A program made the position numbers. From positions 1,030,388 to 1,094,387 of the forward strand of contig CBDIHI010000012.1 of NCBI GenBank assembly GCA_965279075.1: a DNA stretch of 64,000 nucleotides, given 5' to 3'. Of the stretch, positions 37,701 to 43,700 are shown in pieces. Numbering within the stretch: position 1 is the stretch's first letter; each line of letters starts with the position of its first letter. The DNA is from Burkholderiales bacterium. GTDB taxonomy: Bacteria > Pseudomonadota > Gammaproteobacteria > Burkholderiales > SG8-39.

Positions 37701-40700
37701 GCTGATCGGGGGCTGATCGAAACGTCTCAGGTATCCCTGCACCTGCTCCGGGGACCAGTCCAGACGGATCAGTCCGCGCACACAGCGCAGTAGCGCCCCG
37801 GACTTCGTCGGATGGTTTGCTGCCGAGCGGCGAGCTCGCCGCTCGGCAGCAAACTGTGCTTCTTCGGCCAGGTATCCACGCTTGCCATGAGAACCCCTAT
37901 CAATCTCCCGGCTGATCGTCGCGTGATGCCGGCCCAGCTTGCGACCGATCTGCCGGGCACTCAGCTTCGCTTGTAACCCCAGCGCAATCTGGTAGCGTTC
38001 CGTTGGGGTGAGGTGTGCATAACGCATTGAGTGCTCCTTCCTAGACTCGTCATCGAGAAAGGTACACCCGTGCACATCCTCACCTCTCTCTGCTCAATCA
38101 GGATGTCGCACTTCGAACTTGAATTTGCAAAGTCCCCTGGAAGCCGCTCCAGCCGGGCACTTCCGAAAATAAAGTCTTGAAATCTGCCTGTGACTGTCAG
38201 CGCGAGCCGGGTGCGTAGGGCGGGCGGTAGGCCAACGCGATCCTGTGCCTGCCCGGCGCAAGGGAGAGCCCGTATTGCGCATGGTTGGCGCGCACGAGGG
38301 CTGCGCGTTGCCCGTCCACATCCGCGATCCAGTACGGGCTCCAGGTGCTGGCCATGACGAGGAAGGCATCGCCCGGTGCGGTGACCTCCAACTCGATCCG
38401 GTCCGGTCGATAGGCAAGCGTCTTGACCACGCCACCGGAAAGCTCCCGCCGGGGCGCGAAGTCGCGGGCGTCGGCCGCCGCCAATACGGCCGTGTCCCGC
38501 ACGCCCTCAGCATCCAGAGACGCGAGCCGGTCCAGGGCGGCCTTGCCGTCCACGGCCACCTCCACGTTGCGGACCAGCCGGAACCGCTCCACGCTGCCGG
38601 AAAGCTCGTAGACGAAGACGTCCTTGCCGCGCAGCTTGCGCAGGCCGAACTGGTAGTAGTCATAGAACGGCTGCAGGTAACGCAACCGGGGCCGGAGGGT
38701 CATTTCCGGCGGGTGGCGCTCGCCCCGCACCAACCCGGTGTTCCGGTCGCGGTACTCGGCCCAGGTCGGCCATGGGTCCGCGGCGTGAACCAGGCTGAGG
38801 CCGCTGCCGCGCAGGGGGTAGGCGGACAGCAGGTAGCGCACATTCAGCATCCTCAGCAGGTTCAGGTTGAAGCGACGATCGACGTCGAACCCGCTCCGCA
38901 TCGCTTCCTGCAGGTCTTCCCCGGGCAGCAGGCCTACCGACGGGTGGACGAGGTCGGCTCCCAGGAAAATGAAGTTGTCCTCGGCGCGACCGCTGTCTGC
39001 GCCGAAGATCGCGCGGTTGGATGGCATGGCCTCGAACAGCGGCGCGAGCACGCGCAGCCAGAGGTCCCGGTAAACCGCCGGGTAGACGTTCGCCCAGCCG
39101 TCCACGGTCTCCAGCCCCTGGGCGTAGGCGTACGCAGGCTGCAGGGGCAGCACGCTCGCGACGCGGAACAGGCCGGGCTTTGCGCGCAGCGCATCGACCG
39201 CCGGCACCTCGTAGTTCGCCTGCCCCCAGTCGTTCACGCCGAGGTCGTAGAAGAGGTGGACTTTCGGCGCCAGTGCCATGAATGCCACGAGCCCCAGGGT
39301 GCCGTATCGCAGCGACTTGCGGGCGGTCGCGTGCCCCTGCGCGGCCAGCCACGCCATTTGCAGGGCGAGCGTCGCGCCCACTGCGATCATGAACGGCGCC
39401 GGGATCTGGAAGAAGCGCCCCATGTACACGCCGCGGGCGAAAGGGGCGAAATGGACCACCGCCATCTGCAGCAGCAGCCAGGCCCACTTCTGCGAGAGCA
39501 GGAAGAAGATCGCTGCGACAGGCAGGAAGGCCGACGCCGCAGCGCGGTCCGCGTCGCTCCCGCTCCGTGCACGCCAGGCCATTGCCAGGCCGGCGGCGAA
39601 CGCCATCCAGGGCAGGTTCATCGTCACCCACATCAGCGCCTGGTTCTGGCCGAAGAGGTCGAACTGCAACTGCCGGTAGAGCAGGCCGTCGACCGAGGCG
39701 CCGATCGCTTCGATTTCCCACCCGGCCCGATGCGAGGCGGTGCCGTTGGCCGCGATCGCGAGGAGTTGCGGCGCGGTGGCGACCATCAGCACGAGGGAGA
39801 AAGCGGCGAAAGGGCCGGCGGCCTTGCGCCAGTCCACCTTCTGCACGGCGGTGAGCCATAGCACGGCGAAAGTCAGCAGGTAGGGGACGCCGAACGTGAA
39901 GGTCGTGGCAAAGGACAGGAGCAGGCCGCTGCCGGCTGCCCGGGCCCACGTCCCTGAGGCGCCTACCGAGCGGGCGAGGAGCCAGAGCATCACCGGCACA
40001 CCGGGCAGCGTGAACAGCGCGCCGACCGTGAAGTACGAGAAGCATCCGAACAGCACCCCGGCGAGTTCGGGCCAGTCCCCCTTGAGGCCAAGCTGTTCCT
40101 TCGCCACGCGGCTCGCGAAGAACACCGCGACGAAGTACTGCAGGAAACGGTGCAGGCCGTTCGCGAGCCACGCGGGCAGCGTGCTGAAGAGGAAGTACTC
40201 GGGGCCGAACGGGTTGGCGTTGCCCCAGAAGGCGAGCCGGTCTATCCCGCCTGCGACGAAGGGCGACCAGAGCGAAAGGTTGCGCCCGTCGAAGGACAGC
40301 GCCTTGAGCGCGGGGATGGTCTCGAGTCCGCTGCCGTAGCCGTAGATCCACGAGAGCGGTCCGAGCGCCCAGGATTCGAAGGAGAGGAGCGCCGCGGCGA
40401 GCGCGGCCACGGCGAGCGTCCGGCGGACGTCGGGGGAGGGCGCGGGGAGAGAGTCCGCGCGGTTCATCGCCGGCCGGATCTGCGGAACGCGAGGAACAGC
40501 GCGACCAGGGCCGCCAGTGCAACGAGGCGGAAGGCCCAGGCGGTGGCGCTGTCGAGGAAGGACGAGTAGTGGAAGCGCACGCTCGCCGCTCCTGCAGGCA
40601 CGACCACGCCGCGCATCACGGCATTCGCTGCGAGGACCGGCAACTCGCGCCCGTTCGCATCGGCCTTCCATCCAGGGTAGTAGAGCTCGTTCAGCACGAG

Positions 40701-43700
40701 GAAGCGTTCCGACGGGGAAGGCTCGAAGCGCAGCGTGAGGAGGTCGTTCGTGCCGTCCACCGCCACCGGGCCGCCGCGCGGGAAGGTGCGGGCGCCATTC
40801 AGCCCTTCCACGTAAGACGTCTCCACCGGGTCCACGATGCCATCGGGCCGGAACAATTGCGCAGCGGCCTCCTCCGGCGTCGCGACCGGACGAGCCGCTG
40901 CGGCGAAGAACGCCCTCGGGGTCACGCGGGCGGGCGAAGGGACGATCTCGAATTTCGCCGGGTCGGGGCGCCCCGTGATCCTGTCCCCGTCGGTGGCGAT
41001 GTTGCGGAACACGCCGTCCCCGGCCACGAGCACCCAGCGCACGTTCAGCAGGCCGATAAGGTCCCAGGGGACCGATTCCACCTTCGTGAAGCTGATCGTG
41101 CGCAGGCTGACGCTGCTGGGCCAGGGCAGGGCGCGCAGGCGGCGGGGGACGCCCGGGCCGTAGTAGCCGTCAATCGCGCGCAGTTGCCAGAATTCGGGGA
41201 CATGGCCGGCGCAGAAGCCGTCTGCTATCCGGGAGTCGCAGATCAAGGCCACGCGGTACTTTCCGGGTTCGATACGCTGGTGCAGCGCGGACAGTTGCGC
41301 CTTGTCCGGCACGGCAAATTCCTCGCGCCGCGCCTGGTAGGAGTCGCCGCGATAGAAGGGGCGCGAGAATTCCAGCGTATGCGGGCCGTTGACCTGGCTA
41401 TTGGCGGAAAGCAGGCACTGTGTTGCGATCAACGCGCACAGTGCGGCGTAAGCGCGCTGGCGCCACTGCTCGCTGCCATTGAGCACGAGCCTTAGCAGCG
41501 CGAGGAACGCCACGACGGACAGCAGGACCCTCACGAGTGACTCGATGCGAACGAAGGAGGCCTGCAAAACGATCGAGGGGAACAACCCTGCAAAAGACCT
41601 CGTCTGCGGATACTGTCGGGCGATAGCGTCGATCACGATCGCGACGAGCAATCCTATCGAGAGTCCCTGAAGGCCGTGCCGCATTGCCTTTGCAGCTTCT
41701 TCGCGAGGCGGGGCCATGACTTCCAGCGCCACCGCAACCATCATCGCGAGCGGCAACAGGGCCGAGATCTGGATGCGCGCGTGTGTGAAGTCGAGCTTCA
41801 GGAACAGCAGGAACATCAGGTGCGCCGCCGGCTTCACCACGATCACCGAGATGCACAGGATCAGCGTCCAGAAGAAGAATCCCTCCTCGCGTTCGGAAGC
41901 GCGCAGCGGATTCAGCCACGCGTAGCGGCTGCGCACCAGGCCGACCAGCAGCAGGAACGGCACAACGCTCGAAGTCGCCAGCAGGAGCCCTTCGGTCAGG
42001 TTGATGTTGTTCCTGATGGCGATCGAGTCGGAAGGGCTGTGCCCGAAGATCGGGTAGTCGAACCAGCGCAGGATCTCGTACGGGTAGATGTTCTGGAAGG
42101 CGTAGAGGACGTCGAAGTCCTTCAGGTCTATGCCCGCGATAGCGCGCTTGAATTCGCCCAGCGCGAGGCCGACCGCGAGGATCCGCGGCAAGGCAAATCC
42201 GAGTCCGATCAGGAACGCGAGGCTGAACACAAGCGCCGGACGCCAGGAACGTTGTGTCCAGGATAGCCATAGCGCGTACGACCCGACCAGCATCAGCGCG
42301 TATGCCGCCTTCTGCAGGAACATGTAGTTCAGCATCGCACCTAACAGCACCGCAAGCGCCGCGAAGCACCAGGCGGCCGTTTCGCGGCGAACATGGTGCA
42401 GGGCGAGCATGAACAGTGGTATCAGCACGAACACCGCGAACGTCATGCTGTTCTGGCTGTCCTTGAGGATCGAGAGGGCCGAGAACTCGTAGCAGATCGC
42501 TCCCACAAGCGCAGCCGCGCCGGGCGGGACCAGCGCGCGCAGGAAAGCGTAGGCCGCCACGCCGGACGCGAACAGCAGGCCGATGGCGAAATAGCCCATG
42601 CTGACGTACAGGTTGGCCTCGCCGAAAATGGCGGCCAGGTAGACGAGCGGGTTGGTGGAGGTGCCGGCCATGGCCAGGCTGTCGTAGCCCATCATCTCGT
42701 GCTCGTTCCATGCGGAGAGCGCGCCGCTGCCAAGCCCTGACAGGTAGTGCCTGAGGTACTTCAGGTCGCCGTTCAGCCGGTCGGGATTGCCGATCCACAG
42801 GCTGTCGCCGAAGAAATGCCCCCTGAACAGCCATACCGCCAGCGCGGCGAGCAGCAGCACCGCGGCAGCGTCCCGGTAGCGGGATCCGGCTTGCGGCGAG
42901 GAGTAGTCCGGGCGACTTTCTGCTGCAGCGTACTGGACCAATCAAGGGCTCCGTGCGGATCGGATGAAAACCACGCTTTTACTGCGAGCCCACCCTCTCA
43001 TCCGATGGAGGTTGATCCAGTAAGGTCGTGTAAAATATGCGTAATTCGTGAGTATATTCTCATACGCACCCCCCATCGGCAGCAACAGTAGTGTTGGAGA
43101 AGCCGTGTTGAGCCCCACCCCCGTTGACCTGATCCAGAAGCACCTCGCGTGTGTGCAGTGCAAGGGAGCGCTGACCGCATCGGAGGGCCGCTACGCCTGC
43201 CCATCCTGCAGCCGGACCTACGACTTCGAAGACGGGGTCTTCTTCGCCAAGGAGAGCAAGGCCACCCACTATTTCGATGCGGTGCACCAGGTCATGCAGG
43301 TGGGCAACGAGTCGGAAGAGATCTCGACCCTGTGCTACACGGAACAGTCCCGCCTCGCCCTCGACATGATACGGCCCGGCGACGTGGTCGTGGACATAGG
43401 CTGCGGGCCGAAGATCAACTACGCGAAGCCTGCCGATTGCACGCTGATCGGCATCGACCCGTCCTTCGAGTCGATCCGCGCCAACAAAGCGCTGGACATC
43501 CGCATCTTCGGCGGGGCGGAGAACGCGCCGCTGCCCGACAATTCGGTGGACCGGATCTTCCTCTTCTACTCGATCCACCACATGGTCGGCCGCACGGTCG
43601 AGGAGAACGCCGCGAACCTCGCCGCGTCGCTGCGCGAATGCGGGCGCGTGATGCGCGCCGGCGGCACGCTGGCGGTGTTCGACATGAGCCCGTGGTGGCC

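What the first reader, a model, noticed from the sequence alone, without database searches (positions are those of the whole stretch)
38197..42941. Tandem, translationally coupled YfhO-family paralogs in a Gram-negative locus
Two genes of 756 and 825 aa overlap by ATGA. Both carry the YfhO-type C-terminal signature (SPYWIADVDGQ...ANHAQYGLSLAPGRHRIALAY and YYPGWKADANGRELPVL...VVVPAGAASVRFHY). YfhO proteins are best known as the extracytoplasmic glycosyltransferases of lipoteichoic or wall teichoic acid in Firmicutes, substrates a proteobacterium lacks. Two diverged copies, together with five more polytopic proteins, imply several distinct transfer steps or acceptors in the periplasm.
Basis: partly seen in the sequence, partly recalled or inferred. 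Interest (0 to 1): 0.6.

Follow-up and report, generated by a model that had tools for sequence, protein, structure and literature searches.

The report
Conserved pair of YfhO-like membrane glycosyltransferases
Two adjacent, overlapping genes encode very distantly related membrane proteins with the GT-C fold of periplasm-facing sugar transferases; the pair is real and conserved across many bacterial phyla inside an uncharacterised surface-sugar locus, but it is a new member of a known enzyme class, not an anomaly.

Summary
Two minus-strand genes, A (40464-42941, 825 aa) and B (38197-40467, 756 aa), overlap by ATGA and carry the quoted C-terminal motifs.

A passes Pfam's YfhO threshold (34.1 vs 28.5 bits). 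B is DUF6044 by Pfam (52.2 bits) and falls below the YfhO threshold (20.7 bits). Both families align over nearly their full length with a set of YfhO-positive proteins (hhalign E 5e-40 and 4e-33). To each other they align only over the C-terminal domain, so they are ancient relatives, not recent duplicates.

AlphaFold models (pLDDT 94) match GT-C glycosyltransferases, best the mycobacterial AftD, then STT3/PglB, ArnT and EmbA/B/C.

The A-B pair recurs in proteobacteria, Rokubacteria, Acidobacteriota and Alicyclobacillaceae. It usually follows two small paralogous membrane proteins, and GT2, GtrA-like or flippase-like genes, methyltransferases and other unannotated polytopic proteins lie nearby.

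The most likely function is two periplasmic sugar-transfer steps from polyprenyl-phosphate sugars onto an unknown surface glycan. A B-family profile matches about 38,000 protein clusters, so finding such genes in a Gram-negative genome is not surprising. ATGA overlaps are routine in this locus.

The parts
40464..42941 (-). Gene A: 825-aa YfhO-family GT-C protein. 13 TM helices, a roughly 280-aa periplasmic alpha/beta plus beta-sandwich domain, and a final C-terminal TM helix (799-824).
   Evidence: ORF. Pfam YfhO 34.1 bits, cut-off 28.5. hhalign against a YfhO-positive set: E 4.8e-40 over 696 columns. AF2 pLDDT 93.9. Foldseek best hit AftD 6w98, E 3.4e-6, then STT3, AglB, PglB, AftB. G51-N-P-D54-R-L nearly invariant in 98 homologues.
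38197..40467 (-). Gene B: 756-aa DUF6044 protein, a distant YfhO-superfamily GT-C protein. TM core to about residue 411, periplasmic domain 412-756, no C-terminal TM helix.
   Evidence: ORF. Pfam DUF6044 52.2 bits (cut-off 27); YfhO 20.7 bits, below cut-off. hhalign against the YfhO-positive set: E 3.8e-33 over 609 columns. AF2 pLDDT 93.6. Foldseek best hit AftD, E 9.3e-9, then STT3, PglB, ArnT, EmbA/B/C. E31, E49, D76, R77, R247, D270 and R351 invariant or nearly so.
40464..40467 (-). ATGA start/stop overlap between A and B.
   Evidence: Sequence read directly. The same 4-nt overlap is called in L001 and L003.
42949..42952 (-). GGAG Shine-Dalgarno-like motif 7 nt upstream of A's TTG start.
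   Evidence: Sequence read directly.
31720..32232 (+). Small membrane protein 1 (about 170 aa; 3 TM helices plus a C-terminal soluble part). Its homologues sit directly upstream of A-like genes in other genomes.
   Evidence: No Pfam hit.
32236..32709 (+). Small membrane protein 2 (157 aa; 3-4 TM helices plus a winged-helix-like C-terminus). A distant paralogue of small protein 1; in other genomes its gene abuts the start of the A-like gene.
   Evidence: hhalign of small 1 against small 2: probability 88%, E 3e-6 over 146 columns. Synteny in L001, L004, L005, L006, L017 and a JGI contig. Weak wHTH Pfam hits below cut-off.
23575..24426 (+). GT2 glycosyltransferase, candidate polyprenyl-phosphate-sugar synthase. 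Coordinates are stop-to-stop; the true start is somewhat downstream.
   Evidence: Pfam Glycos_transf_2 75.9 bits. Weak NCBIfam hits to PgfS, AglJ and PpgS-type enzymes, all below cut-off. Followed directly by a GtrA-like gene.
24427..24963 (+). GtrA-like small membrane protein, candidate flippase for polyprenyl-P-sugar.
   Evidence: Pfam GtrA_DPMS_TM 39.2 bits, cut-off 26.1.
28556..29602 (-). Flippase-like membrane protein (LPG_synthase_TM domain) that recurs near A-B pairs.
   Evidence: Pfam 132.5 bits. Homologues in L005, L006, L013, L017 and a JGI contig.
43048..43953 (+). SAM-dependent methyltransferase, transcribed divergently from A. First gene of the co-conserved plus-strand operon.
   Evidence: Pfam Methyltransf_11. 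66% identical homologue in the same position in L003.
43988..46678 (+). 896-aa polytopic protein of a family with no Pfam model. It co-occurs with A-B; function unknown.
   Evidence: 12 or more hydrophobic segments. No Pfam hit at E<5. At least 200 homologues, none annotated. Found in L003, L004, L005, L009, L012, L017. No detectable YfhO relationship.
46675..48303 (+). 542-aa polytopic protein, unannotated.
   Evidence: Homologues in L003 and L004.
49054..50045 (+). Second GT2 glycosyltransferase (cytoplasmic type).
   Evidence: Frame translation. Pfam Glycos_transf_2 89.8 bits.
50046..51320 (+). Wzx/MOP-family flippase. Coordinates are stop-to-stop; the first start codon is at 50169.
   Evidence: Pfam Polysacc_synt_3 68 bits and Polysacc_synt 66.2 bits. 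NCBIfam MOP flippase hit is weak.
37045..38130 (-). IS30-family insertion sequence, inserted 66 nt downstream of B's stop codon. Not part of the system.
   Evidence: HTH_38 plus rve hits. 27-nt terminal inverted repeats. Absent from the syntenic L003. IS30 transposase annotations under BLAST hits.

Best explanation
A and B are two anciently diverged GT-C-fold integral-membrane glycosyltransferases of the YfhO superfamily. A falls in YfhO proper and B in the DUF6044 branch. They are co-transcribed and translationally coupled. Each most likely takes a sugar from a polyprenyl-phosphate-sugar donor on the periplasmic face of the inner membrane and adds it to a growing or already exported surface glycan (O-antigen-like, exopolysaccharide or glycolipid). 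That glycan's nucleotide-sugar, methylation and flipping genes fill the surrounding ~43-kb locus. The donors would be made by the GT2 at 23575-24426 and flipped by the GtrA-like protein next to it and/or the LPG_synthase_TM-type protein. This is the three-component logic known from CsbB/GtcA/YfhO and GtrA/B/C. A and B would catalyse two different transfer steps in one pathway.

Shown here: the genes, the overlap, family relationships, predicted fold, conserved synteny and conserved loop residues. Inferred: donor type, periplasmic site of action, two distinct steps, the acceptor, and any physical A-B interaction.
For: Family: Pfam YfhO (A) and DUF6044 (B) above their cut-offs. About a third of B's listed homologues carry both PF19510 and PF09586. 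hhalign of both families against ten YfhO-positive proteins is near full-length, with E 4.8e-40 and 3.8e-33.

Fold: AF2 pLDDT 93.9 and 93.6. The top Foldseek PDB hits are exclusively GT-C enzymes: AftD, STT3, AglB, PglB, AftB, ArnT, EmbA/B/C.

Architecture: A has 13 TM helices, a large extracytoplasmic domain and a last TM helix. This matches the topology described for B. subtilis YfhO (PMC5836110).

Catalytic plausibility: there are nearly invariant acidic residues in the first periplasmic loop (A: D54, E82, D87; B: E31, E49, D76). Invariant Arg/His residues occur in later loops (A: R253, R266, R292, H387, R389; B: R77, R247, R351).

Pathway context: a GT2 plus GtrA-like pair, an LPG_synthase_TM flippase-like protein, Wzx, a second GT2, RmlD, sugar-nucleotide enzymes and several methyltransferases.

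Conservation: the A-B pair, with the same accessory genes, occurs in several phyla.
Against: - There is no biochemical or genetic evidence for any member of the A or B orthologue groups, and no paper mentions DUF6044.
- Even for Firmicute YfhO the transferase activity rests on genetics. The catalytic residues are undefined (PMC5836110).
- The acidic residues conserved in A, B and the generic YfhO set do not fall in the same alignment columns. YfhO has D at P-7, A has D54 at P+1, and B has Y44 at the YfhO-D column with E49 at P-3. An active site could not be confirmed without coordinates.
- The GT2/GtrA pair lies 14 kb away on the other strand. The gene after it looks frameshifted.
- The YfhO-positive comparison set (A5) consists of environmental proteins whose Pfam matches are themselves modest. 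It contains no characterised Firmicute enzyme.
Confidence: 0.6

Rival explanations
1. A and B are subunits of one obligate hetero-oligomeric enzyme, possibly together with the two small paralogous membrane proteins. This would resemble the mycobacterial EmbA-EmbB heterodimer of paralogous GT-C arabinosyltransferases. The complex would act as a single, perhaps processive, glycan-building machine instead of two independent enzymes.
For: Translational coupling is conserved in L001, L003 and the window. Co-occurrence is strict in the closer clade. There is a '2+2' module of two paralogous small proteins followed by two distantly related GT-C proteins in L001, L004, L005, L006, L017 and a JGI contig. 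B lacks the C-terminal TM anchor that A has. EmbA/B are among B's fold matches.
Against: In the window and L003 the small genes lie 8-9 kb from A-B in another operon. In L009, L005 and L013 A and B are separated or reordered. L001 and L005 carry extra B copies, and distant A-like genes in Chloroflexota have no B nearby. Operon neighbours in glycan loci often act independently.
Confidence: 0.25
2. B (DUF6044) is a catalytically dead GT-C-like partner. It would bind or present the acceptor through its periplasmic beta-sandwich domain, and only A would transfer sugar.
For: B has invariant Tyr44 at the column where the generic YfhO set has its consensus Asp. B fails the YfhO cut-off. Its C-terminal domain resembles carbohydrate-binding or glycosidase accessory beta-sandwiches (HypBA1 hits). 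PMC8035078 speculates that acceptor binding may be delegated to separate proteins.
Against: B keeps many invariant charged residues in its periplasmic loops (E31, E49, D76, R77, R247, D270, R351). Its conservation is higher than A's: the closest B homologues are 77% identical against 70% for A. The YfhO 'consensus' Asp is itself not strongly conserved and is Asp in only 49 of 98 A-family members. DUF6044 genes also occur in extra copies without a matching extra A (L001, L005).
Confidence: 0.1
3. A and B are not glycosyltransferases. They would do another job at the membrane, such as flipping lipid-linked sugars, polymerising or ligating a glycan, or acting as structural envelope proteins.
For: YfhO activity has never been reconstituted. 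PMC5836110 itself raised the possibility that YfhO might also flip the lipid intermediate. The locus has many unannotated polytopic proteins whose roles are open.
Against: The high-confidence fold matches (Foldseek probability 1.00) are all lipid-phosphate-sugar-dependent GT-C transferases. Dedicated flippase candidates (Wzx, GtrA-like, LPG_synthase_TM) are already present in the locus.
Confidence: 0.05

Closest known systems
CsbB / GtcA / YfhO three-component glycosylation of lipoteichoic and wall teichoic acid in Bacillus, Staphylococcus and Listeria (PMC5836110, PMC8035078)
   Same: A is a Pfam YfhO member with the same overall architecture: many TM helices, a large extracytoplasmic domain before the last TM helix, and the C-terminal YPGW...G motif. 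The window also encodes a GT2 and a GtrA-family protein side by side.
   Different: The host is apparently a proteobacterium without teichoic acids, so the acceptor must differ. Two very divergent YfhO-superfamily genes are coupled, not one. The GT2/GtrA pair is not in the same operon. Sequence similarity to Pfam YfhO is confined mostly to the C-terminal ~60 residues.
Mycobacterial GT-C arabinofuranosyltransferases AftD, AftB and EmbA/EmbB/EmbC (PDB 6w98, 9dlh, 7bvf and others)
   Same: AftD is the best structural match for both A and B. These are GT-C enzymes with periplasmic carbohydrate-binding-type domains that use a polyprenyl-phosphate monosaccharide donor. EmbA and EmbB are adjacent paralogous genes whose products form a heterodimer (established knowledge, not tested here).
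   Different: Sequence identity is 11-15%. TM-scores are only 0.27-0.44 with large rmsd, which shows the same fold class but not close similarity. No arabinose-donor pathway genes (UbiA-like, DprE1/2) were seen in the window.
GtrA/GtrB/GtrC O-antigen glucosylation and ArnC/ArnE-F/ArnT lipid A modification in Gram-negative bacteria
   Same: These have the same three-step logic in the periplasm of Gram-negatives: a GT2 makes Und-P-sugar, a small flippase moves it, and a GT-C enzyme transfers it. ArnT is among B's fold matches.
   Different: A and B are much larger and carry a C-terminal periplasmic domain. They belong to a different GT-C family. They sit in a large biosynthetic island, not in a phage-borne or lipid A modification module.
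Pfam DUF6044 (PF19510)
   Same: B matches it above the cut-off over residues 69-553. NCBI names homologues 'DUF6044 family protein'.
   Different: Nothing is known about the family, and no paper mentions it. This work adds that it is a full-length YfhO-superfamily, GT-C-fold branch that is habitually paired with a YfhO-type gene.

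Membership tests
Pfam YfhO (PF09586) | Whole-protein score at or above the gathering cut-off of 28.5 bits | tested here: met
   This row is for A: 34.1 bits, E 1.4e-8, two stretches, best at 740-792. Most of A's listed homologues also carry PF09586.
Pfam YfhO (PF09586) | Whole-protein score at or above the gathering cut-off of 28.5 bits (gene B) | tested here: not met
   B scores 20.7 bits, E 1.5e-4, at the C-terminus only. About a third of B's homologues do have a precomputed PF09586 hit alongside PF19510.
Pfam DUF6044 (PF19510) | Score at or above the cut-off of 27 bits | tested here: met
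   B scores 52.2 bits over 69-553. A scores only 11 bits, which does not meet the cut-off.
YfhO superfamily (homology over the whole length) | Profile-profile alignment covering both the TM core and the C-terminal domain | tested here: met
   A3 vs A5: probability 100%, E 4.8e-40, 696 columns. A4 vs A5: 99.9%, E 3.8e-33, 609 columns. All ten A5 members pass Pfam YfhO. Caveat: A5 holds environmental proteins, not characterised Firmicute enzymes. A3 vs A4 directly aligns only the C-terminal 192 columns.
YfhO (as described for B. subtilis) | About 13 TM helices with a large extracytoplasmic domain between the last two | tested here: met
   This row is for A. The AF2 model has 13 TM helices, a domain at 519-798 and a last helix at 799-824, compared with PMC5836110. 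B lacks the final TM helix, so B meets this only in part.
GT-C fold glycosyltransferases | Structural similarity of the TM core to solved GT-C enzymes | tested here: met
   Foldseek against the PDB gives AftD, STT3, AglB, PglB, AftB, ArnT and EmbA/B/C at probability 1.00, with E down to 9e-9. The models are high-confidence.
GT-C fold glycosyltransferases | Conserved acidic residue(s) in the first extracytoplasmic loop acting in catalysis | tested here: inconclusive
   Nearly invariant D54, E82 and D87 in A, and E31, E49 and D76 in B, lie in the first loop. They do not share columns with each other or with the YfhO consensus Asp.
Three-component transmembrane glycosylation systems | Partner GT2 that makes polyprenyl-P-sugar, plus a small flippase, encoded with the GT-C gene | tested here: inconclusive
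   A GT2 plus GtrA-like pair exists at 23575-24963. Similar pairs lie near A-B in L017. In the window they are 14 kb away on the other strand, and the GT2's specificity for polyprenyl phosphate is not established.
Three-component transmembrane glycosylation systems | Demonstrated transfer of sugar from lipid carrier to acceptor outside the cytoplasm | not testable with these tools
   This requires genetics and biochemistry.

The most novel reading that the evidence does not exclude
A, B and the two small paralogous 3-TM/winged-helix-like proteins form a conserved four-subunit ('2+2') periplasmic glycosyltransferase machine, spread by horizontal transfer across at least six phyla. Together with the Pfam-less ~900-aa and ~540-aa polytopic proteins, it would assemble a so far undescribed, heavily methylated surface glycan largely outside the cytoplasm from lipid-linked monosaccharides. 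That would be a Gram-negative counterpart of mycobacterial arabinan assembly.
Probability: 0.2. Interest if true: 0.65.

Novelty: new member of a known kind. Interest (0 to 1): 0.35.

Why it matters
YfhO-type enzymes have been studied only as teichoic-acid glycosylases of Firmicutes. DUF6044 has no literature at all.

This work shows that DUF6044 is a GT-C-fold branch of the YfhO superfamily. It also shows that it is habitually paired with a YfhO-type gene and two small membrane proteins in soil and freshwater bacteria of many phyla. That gives these unannotated genes a testable function. It also points to cultured strains (Nitrobacteraceae AZCC 2146, Polynucleobacter sp. IMCC 30228) in which an unknown periplasmically built glycan could be identified.

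The result does not overturn anything. GT-C enzymes working in the Gram-negative periplasm are well known.

Tried and rejected
- **NCBIfam** found nothing for A or B.
- **PDB sequence and profile searches** gave no significant hit for the A, B or g43988 families. Only fold comparison linked them to GT-C enzymes.
- **Window contig.** Exact-sequence look-ups of the window's own A and B found no record. The source organism is inferred only from housekeeping genes.
- **Other polytopic proteins as YfhO/GT-C relatives.** A 7-sequence g43988 alignment gave a colinear but weak hit to A (47% probability). It vanished with a 32-sequence alignment (1%). g46675, g34115, g32703 and g24917 gave nothing. Rejected as unsupported.
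- **Recent tandem duplication.** Rejected. A and B align only C-terminally.
- **ORF 35913-37370(+).** Rejected as a gene. It lies antisense to a conserved 134-aa gene (36519-36923) and runs into the IS element at 37045-38130.
- **IS element as a taxonomic marker.** It gave only short hits of 8-17% coverage.
- **Promoter and terminator scan of 36400-43200.** Nothing above expectation.

Full report
**1. Observation**

The window is GC-rich, about 61-74% in 2-kb bins. The ORF list shows two long minus-strand reading frames, 38197-40671 and 40464-42941. Codon-position GC supports both as genes.

The upstream gene, A, runs from a TTG at 42941 to the stop at 40464 (825 aa). A GGAG lies 7 nt ahead of the TTG.

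The downstream gene, B, starts at the ATG at 40467 and ends at 38197 (756 aa). The ATG and A's TGA form ATGA at 40464-40467.

The 4-nt overlap is not special here. It also occurs at 46675-46678, 33722-33725 and 51317-51320.

**2. Family assignment**

- **Pfam.** A falls in YfhO (PF09586; 34.1 bits against a cut-off of 28.5). The best-matching stretch is only the C-terminal 53 residues. B falls in DUF6044 (PF19510; 52.2 bits against a cut-off of 27, residues 69-553). B's YfhO score of 20.7 bits is below threshold.
- **NCBIfam.** No model matches either protein.
- **Pairwise comparison.** BLASTP aligns A and B significantly only over 51 C-terminal residues (27% identity, E 7e-4).
- **Homologues.** Each protein has more than 100 homologues of 30-77% identity, almost all from metagenomes and almost all unnamed.
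- **Profile comparison.** I built alignments of 98 A-family sequences (A3) and 94 B-family sequences (A4). Both align nearly end to end with a set of ten diverse YfhO-positive proteins (A5). A3 vs A5 gives E 4.8e-40 over 696 columns. A4 vs A5 gives E 3.8e-33 over 609 columns. A3 and A4 align with each other only over the C-terminal ~190 columns (E 2.9e-14).

A and B are therefore both members of a YfhO superfamily, but they are very old relatives. Calling them a tandem pair of 'diverged copies' overstates their closeness.

A B-family profile matches 38,036 cluster representatives at E ≤ 1e-3, 8,322 at ≤ 1e-10 and 442 at ≤ 1e-30. The superfamily is large.

**3. Fold**

AlphaFold2 with these alignments gave confident models: A with pLDDT 93.9 and pTM 0.92, B with pLDDT 93.6 and pTM 0.93.

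- A has 13 TM helices, an extracytoplasmic alpha/beta plus beta-sandwich domain (about 519-798) and a last TM helix (799-824). This is the topology reported for B. subtilis YfhO (PMC5836110).
- B has a similar core and domain but no final helix.

Foldseek against the PDB returns only GT-C glycosyltransferases at the top for both. The order is mycobacterial AftD (6w98; E 3.4e-6 for A, 9.3e-9 for B), then STT3, AglB, PglB, AftB, ArnT and EmbA/B/C. TM-scores are modest (0.27-0.47). That fits the same fold class, not a close relative.

PDB sequence searches were empty.

**4. Conserved residues**

- In A, G51-N-P-D54-R-L just after TM1 is conserved in 97 of 98 sequences. E82, D87, R253, R266, R292, D295, N314, E317, D384, H387 and R389 are also invariant or nearly so.
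- In B, E31, E49, D76, R77, R247, E253, D270 and R351 are invariant or nearly so.

Acidic residues in the first outer loop and basic residues in later loops are what GT-C enzymes use for catalysis and for binding the lipid phosphate (established knowledge). However, the acidic positions of A, B and the generic YfhO set do not share alignment columns. I had no access to model coordinates. Catalytic competence of both proteins is therefore inferred, not shown.

**5. Conservation of the pair**

- In Nitrobacteraceae AZCC 2146 the homologues are adjacent locus tags V1282_006910 and V1282_006911 with a 4-nt overlap.
- In the closest metagenome contig (L003; A 67%, B 76% identical) the whole neighbourhood is syntenic with the window.
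- A scan of species-representative genomes found A-like genes in Alicyclobacillaceae, proteobacterial MAGs, Polynucleobacter, Acidimicrobiia, Gemmatales, Rokubacteria, Chloroflexota and Acidobacteriota.
- B follows A within about 0.4 kb in L004 and L011. It lies 1-7 kb downstream in L005 and L009, and it precedes A in L013. No B was found near the most distant (30-33% identical) A-like genes or in L006.
- Two further contexts (L017 and a JGI contig) again show A followed directly by B.
- By my comparison, 25 contig lengths are shared between the two capped homologue lists.

**6. A wider module**

Two small membrane proteins are encoded at window 31720-32232 and 32236-32709. Each has three TM helices and a C-terminal soluble part with weak winged-helix similarity. 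They are distant paralogues of each other (hhalign 88%, E 3e-6, full length).

Their homologues lie immediately upstream of the A-like gene in L001, L004, L005, L006, L017 and the JGI contig. The second small gene abuts A's start.

In the window and in L003 the small genes sit instead in a plus-strand operon 8-9 kb away. That operon also holds E1-alpha/E1-beta-type TPP enzymes and more unannotated membrane proteins.

Recurrent companions of the pair are:
- a GT2 with a GtrA-like or LPG_synthase_TM flippase-like protein;
- SAM methyltransferases;
- DedA/VTT proteins;
- a ~900-aa polytopic protein.

**7. The window's locus**

Between about 9.8 and 53.2 kb the window encodes the following:
- a transaldolase-like enzyme;
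- epimerases/dehydratases;
- an HldE-like kinase/nucleotidyltransferase;
- an NDP-sugar dehydrogenase;
- an acetolactate-synthase-like TPP enzyme;
- five SAM-type or FkbM-type methyltransferases;
- a GT2 followed by a GtrA-family protein (23575-24963);
- the flippase-like protein (28556-29602);
- E1-alpha and E1-beta;
- the small proteins and further polytopic proteins;
- B and A;
- a divergent operon of methyltransferase, 896-aa and 542-aa polytopic proteins, a 256-aa protein, a GT2, Wzx, a methyltransferase and RmlD.

This is a surface-glycan biosynthesis island.

The flanks are housekeeping genes: the phenylalanyl-tRNA synthetase beta chain, an IHF-alpha equivalog and tRNA-Pro on the left; beta-oxidation genes, surE and pcm on the right. 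These indicate a proteobacterium, but the organism itself could not be named.

**8. Mechanism**

The best-supported reading is that A and B are periplasm-facing GT-C transferases. They would use polyprenyl-phosphate sugars made by a GT2 and flipped by GtrA-like or flippase-like proteins. Together they would add two different residues to a glycan whose backbone is made by the cytoplasmic enzymes and exported by Wzx. This is the logic established genetically for CsbB/GtcA/YfhO in Firmicutes (PMC5836110, PMC8035078) and for GtrABC and ArnT in Gram-negatives. I put this at 0.6.

The main rival (0.25) is that A and B, possibly with the two small proteins, form an obligate complex like EmbA-EmbB. 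Lesser rivals are that B is a non-catalytic partner (0.1) or that neither protein is a transferase (0.05).

**9. What could not be shown**

The other large polytopic proteins have no Pfam match. The g43988 family has at least 200 unannotated homologues and conserved D50/N52/E53 after TM1. It shows no reliable similarity to YfhO or to any PDB sequence.

**10. Verdict**

The finding is real, and the family call is right for A and right at superfamily level for B. YfhO-like genes in Gram-negative genomes are common at the sequence level, and GT-C enzymes acting in the periplasm are well known. I therefore rate this a new member of a known kind.

The added value is threefold: DUF6044 is assigned to the GT-C/YfhO superfamily, a conserved small1-small2-A-B module is recognised, and cultured strains are identified in which to test it.

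Noticed in passing
window 31720-32232 and 32236-32709 (+); L001 8961-9969; L017 9121-10000: Two small proteins, distant paralogues of each other, each with 3 TM helices and a winged-helix-like C-terminus. Neither has a Pfam family. In six other loci their genes sit directly upstream of the YfhO-like gene, forming a conserved four-gene module. In the window they lie 8 kb away in another operon.
   Followed up: partly
window 43988-46678 (+): An 896-aa polytopic protein that founds a family of at least 200 unannotated homologues with no Pfam model. The N-terminal third is conserved and the C-terminus is variable. D50, N52 and E53 after the first TM helix are invariant. It co-occurs with the A-B pair in several phyla, and no link to YfhO or to any PDB sequence was detectable.
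   Followed up: partly
window 24917-26602 (+): The ORF after the GtrA-like gene shows three switches of the GC3 phase. Its middle third is Arg/Pro/Ser-rich and unmatched by the ~530-aa homologues in L017. It is either a frameshifted pseudogene or the assembly has indels here.
   Followed up: partly
window 37045-38130: An IS30-family insertion sequence (transposase 37053-38075, minus strand; 27-nt terminal inverted repeats). It is inserted between B and a conserved 134-aa gene (36519-36923) and is absent from the syntenic contig L003.
   Followed up: yes
window 29394-31685 (+) and 19879-21708 (+): A pyruvate-dehydrogenase-type E1 alpha/beta pair and an acetolactate-synthase-like TPP enzyme lie inside a glycan locus. 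The E1 pair recurs next to A-B in L003, L006 and L017. This suggests two-carbon branching or another unusual sugar chemistry.
   Followed up: no
window 11632-14187 (+): An 851-aa protein with a cytidylyltransferase-like domain ahead of a PfkB kinase domain, the reverse of the HldE order. It has about 360 unassigned N-terminal residues, and all NCBIfam scores are below cut-off.
   Followed up: no
window ~9800-53200: The whole glycan locus is bounded by housekeeping genes. It has lower-GC stretches (61-64% at 32-38 kb and 42-44 kb), an IS element, and a DUF4143/AAA_14 ATPase gene at 54075-55334 just beyond its right end. Its core genes have a patchy cross-phylum distribution. Together these suggest horizontal acquisition.
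   Followed up: no
L001 5713-8019 and 12490-14790; L005 13717-15948 and 16714-18939: Some genomes carry two DUF6044 (B-like) genes near a single YfhO-like (A-like) gene. The B branch therefore duplicates independently of A.
   Followed up: no
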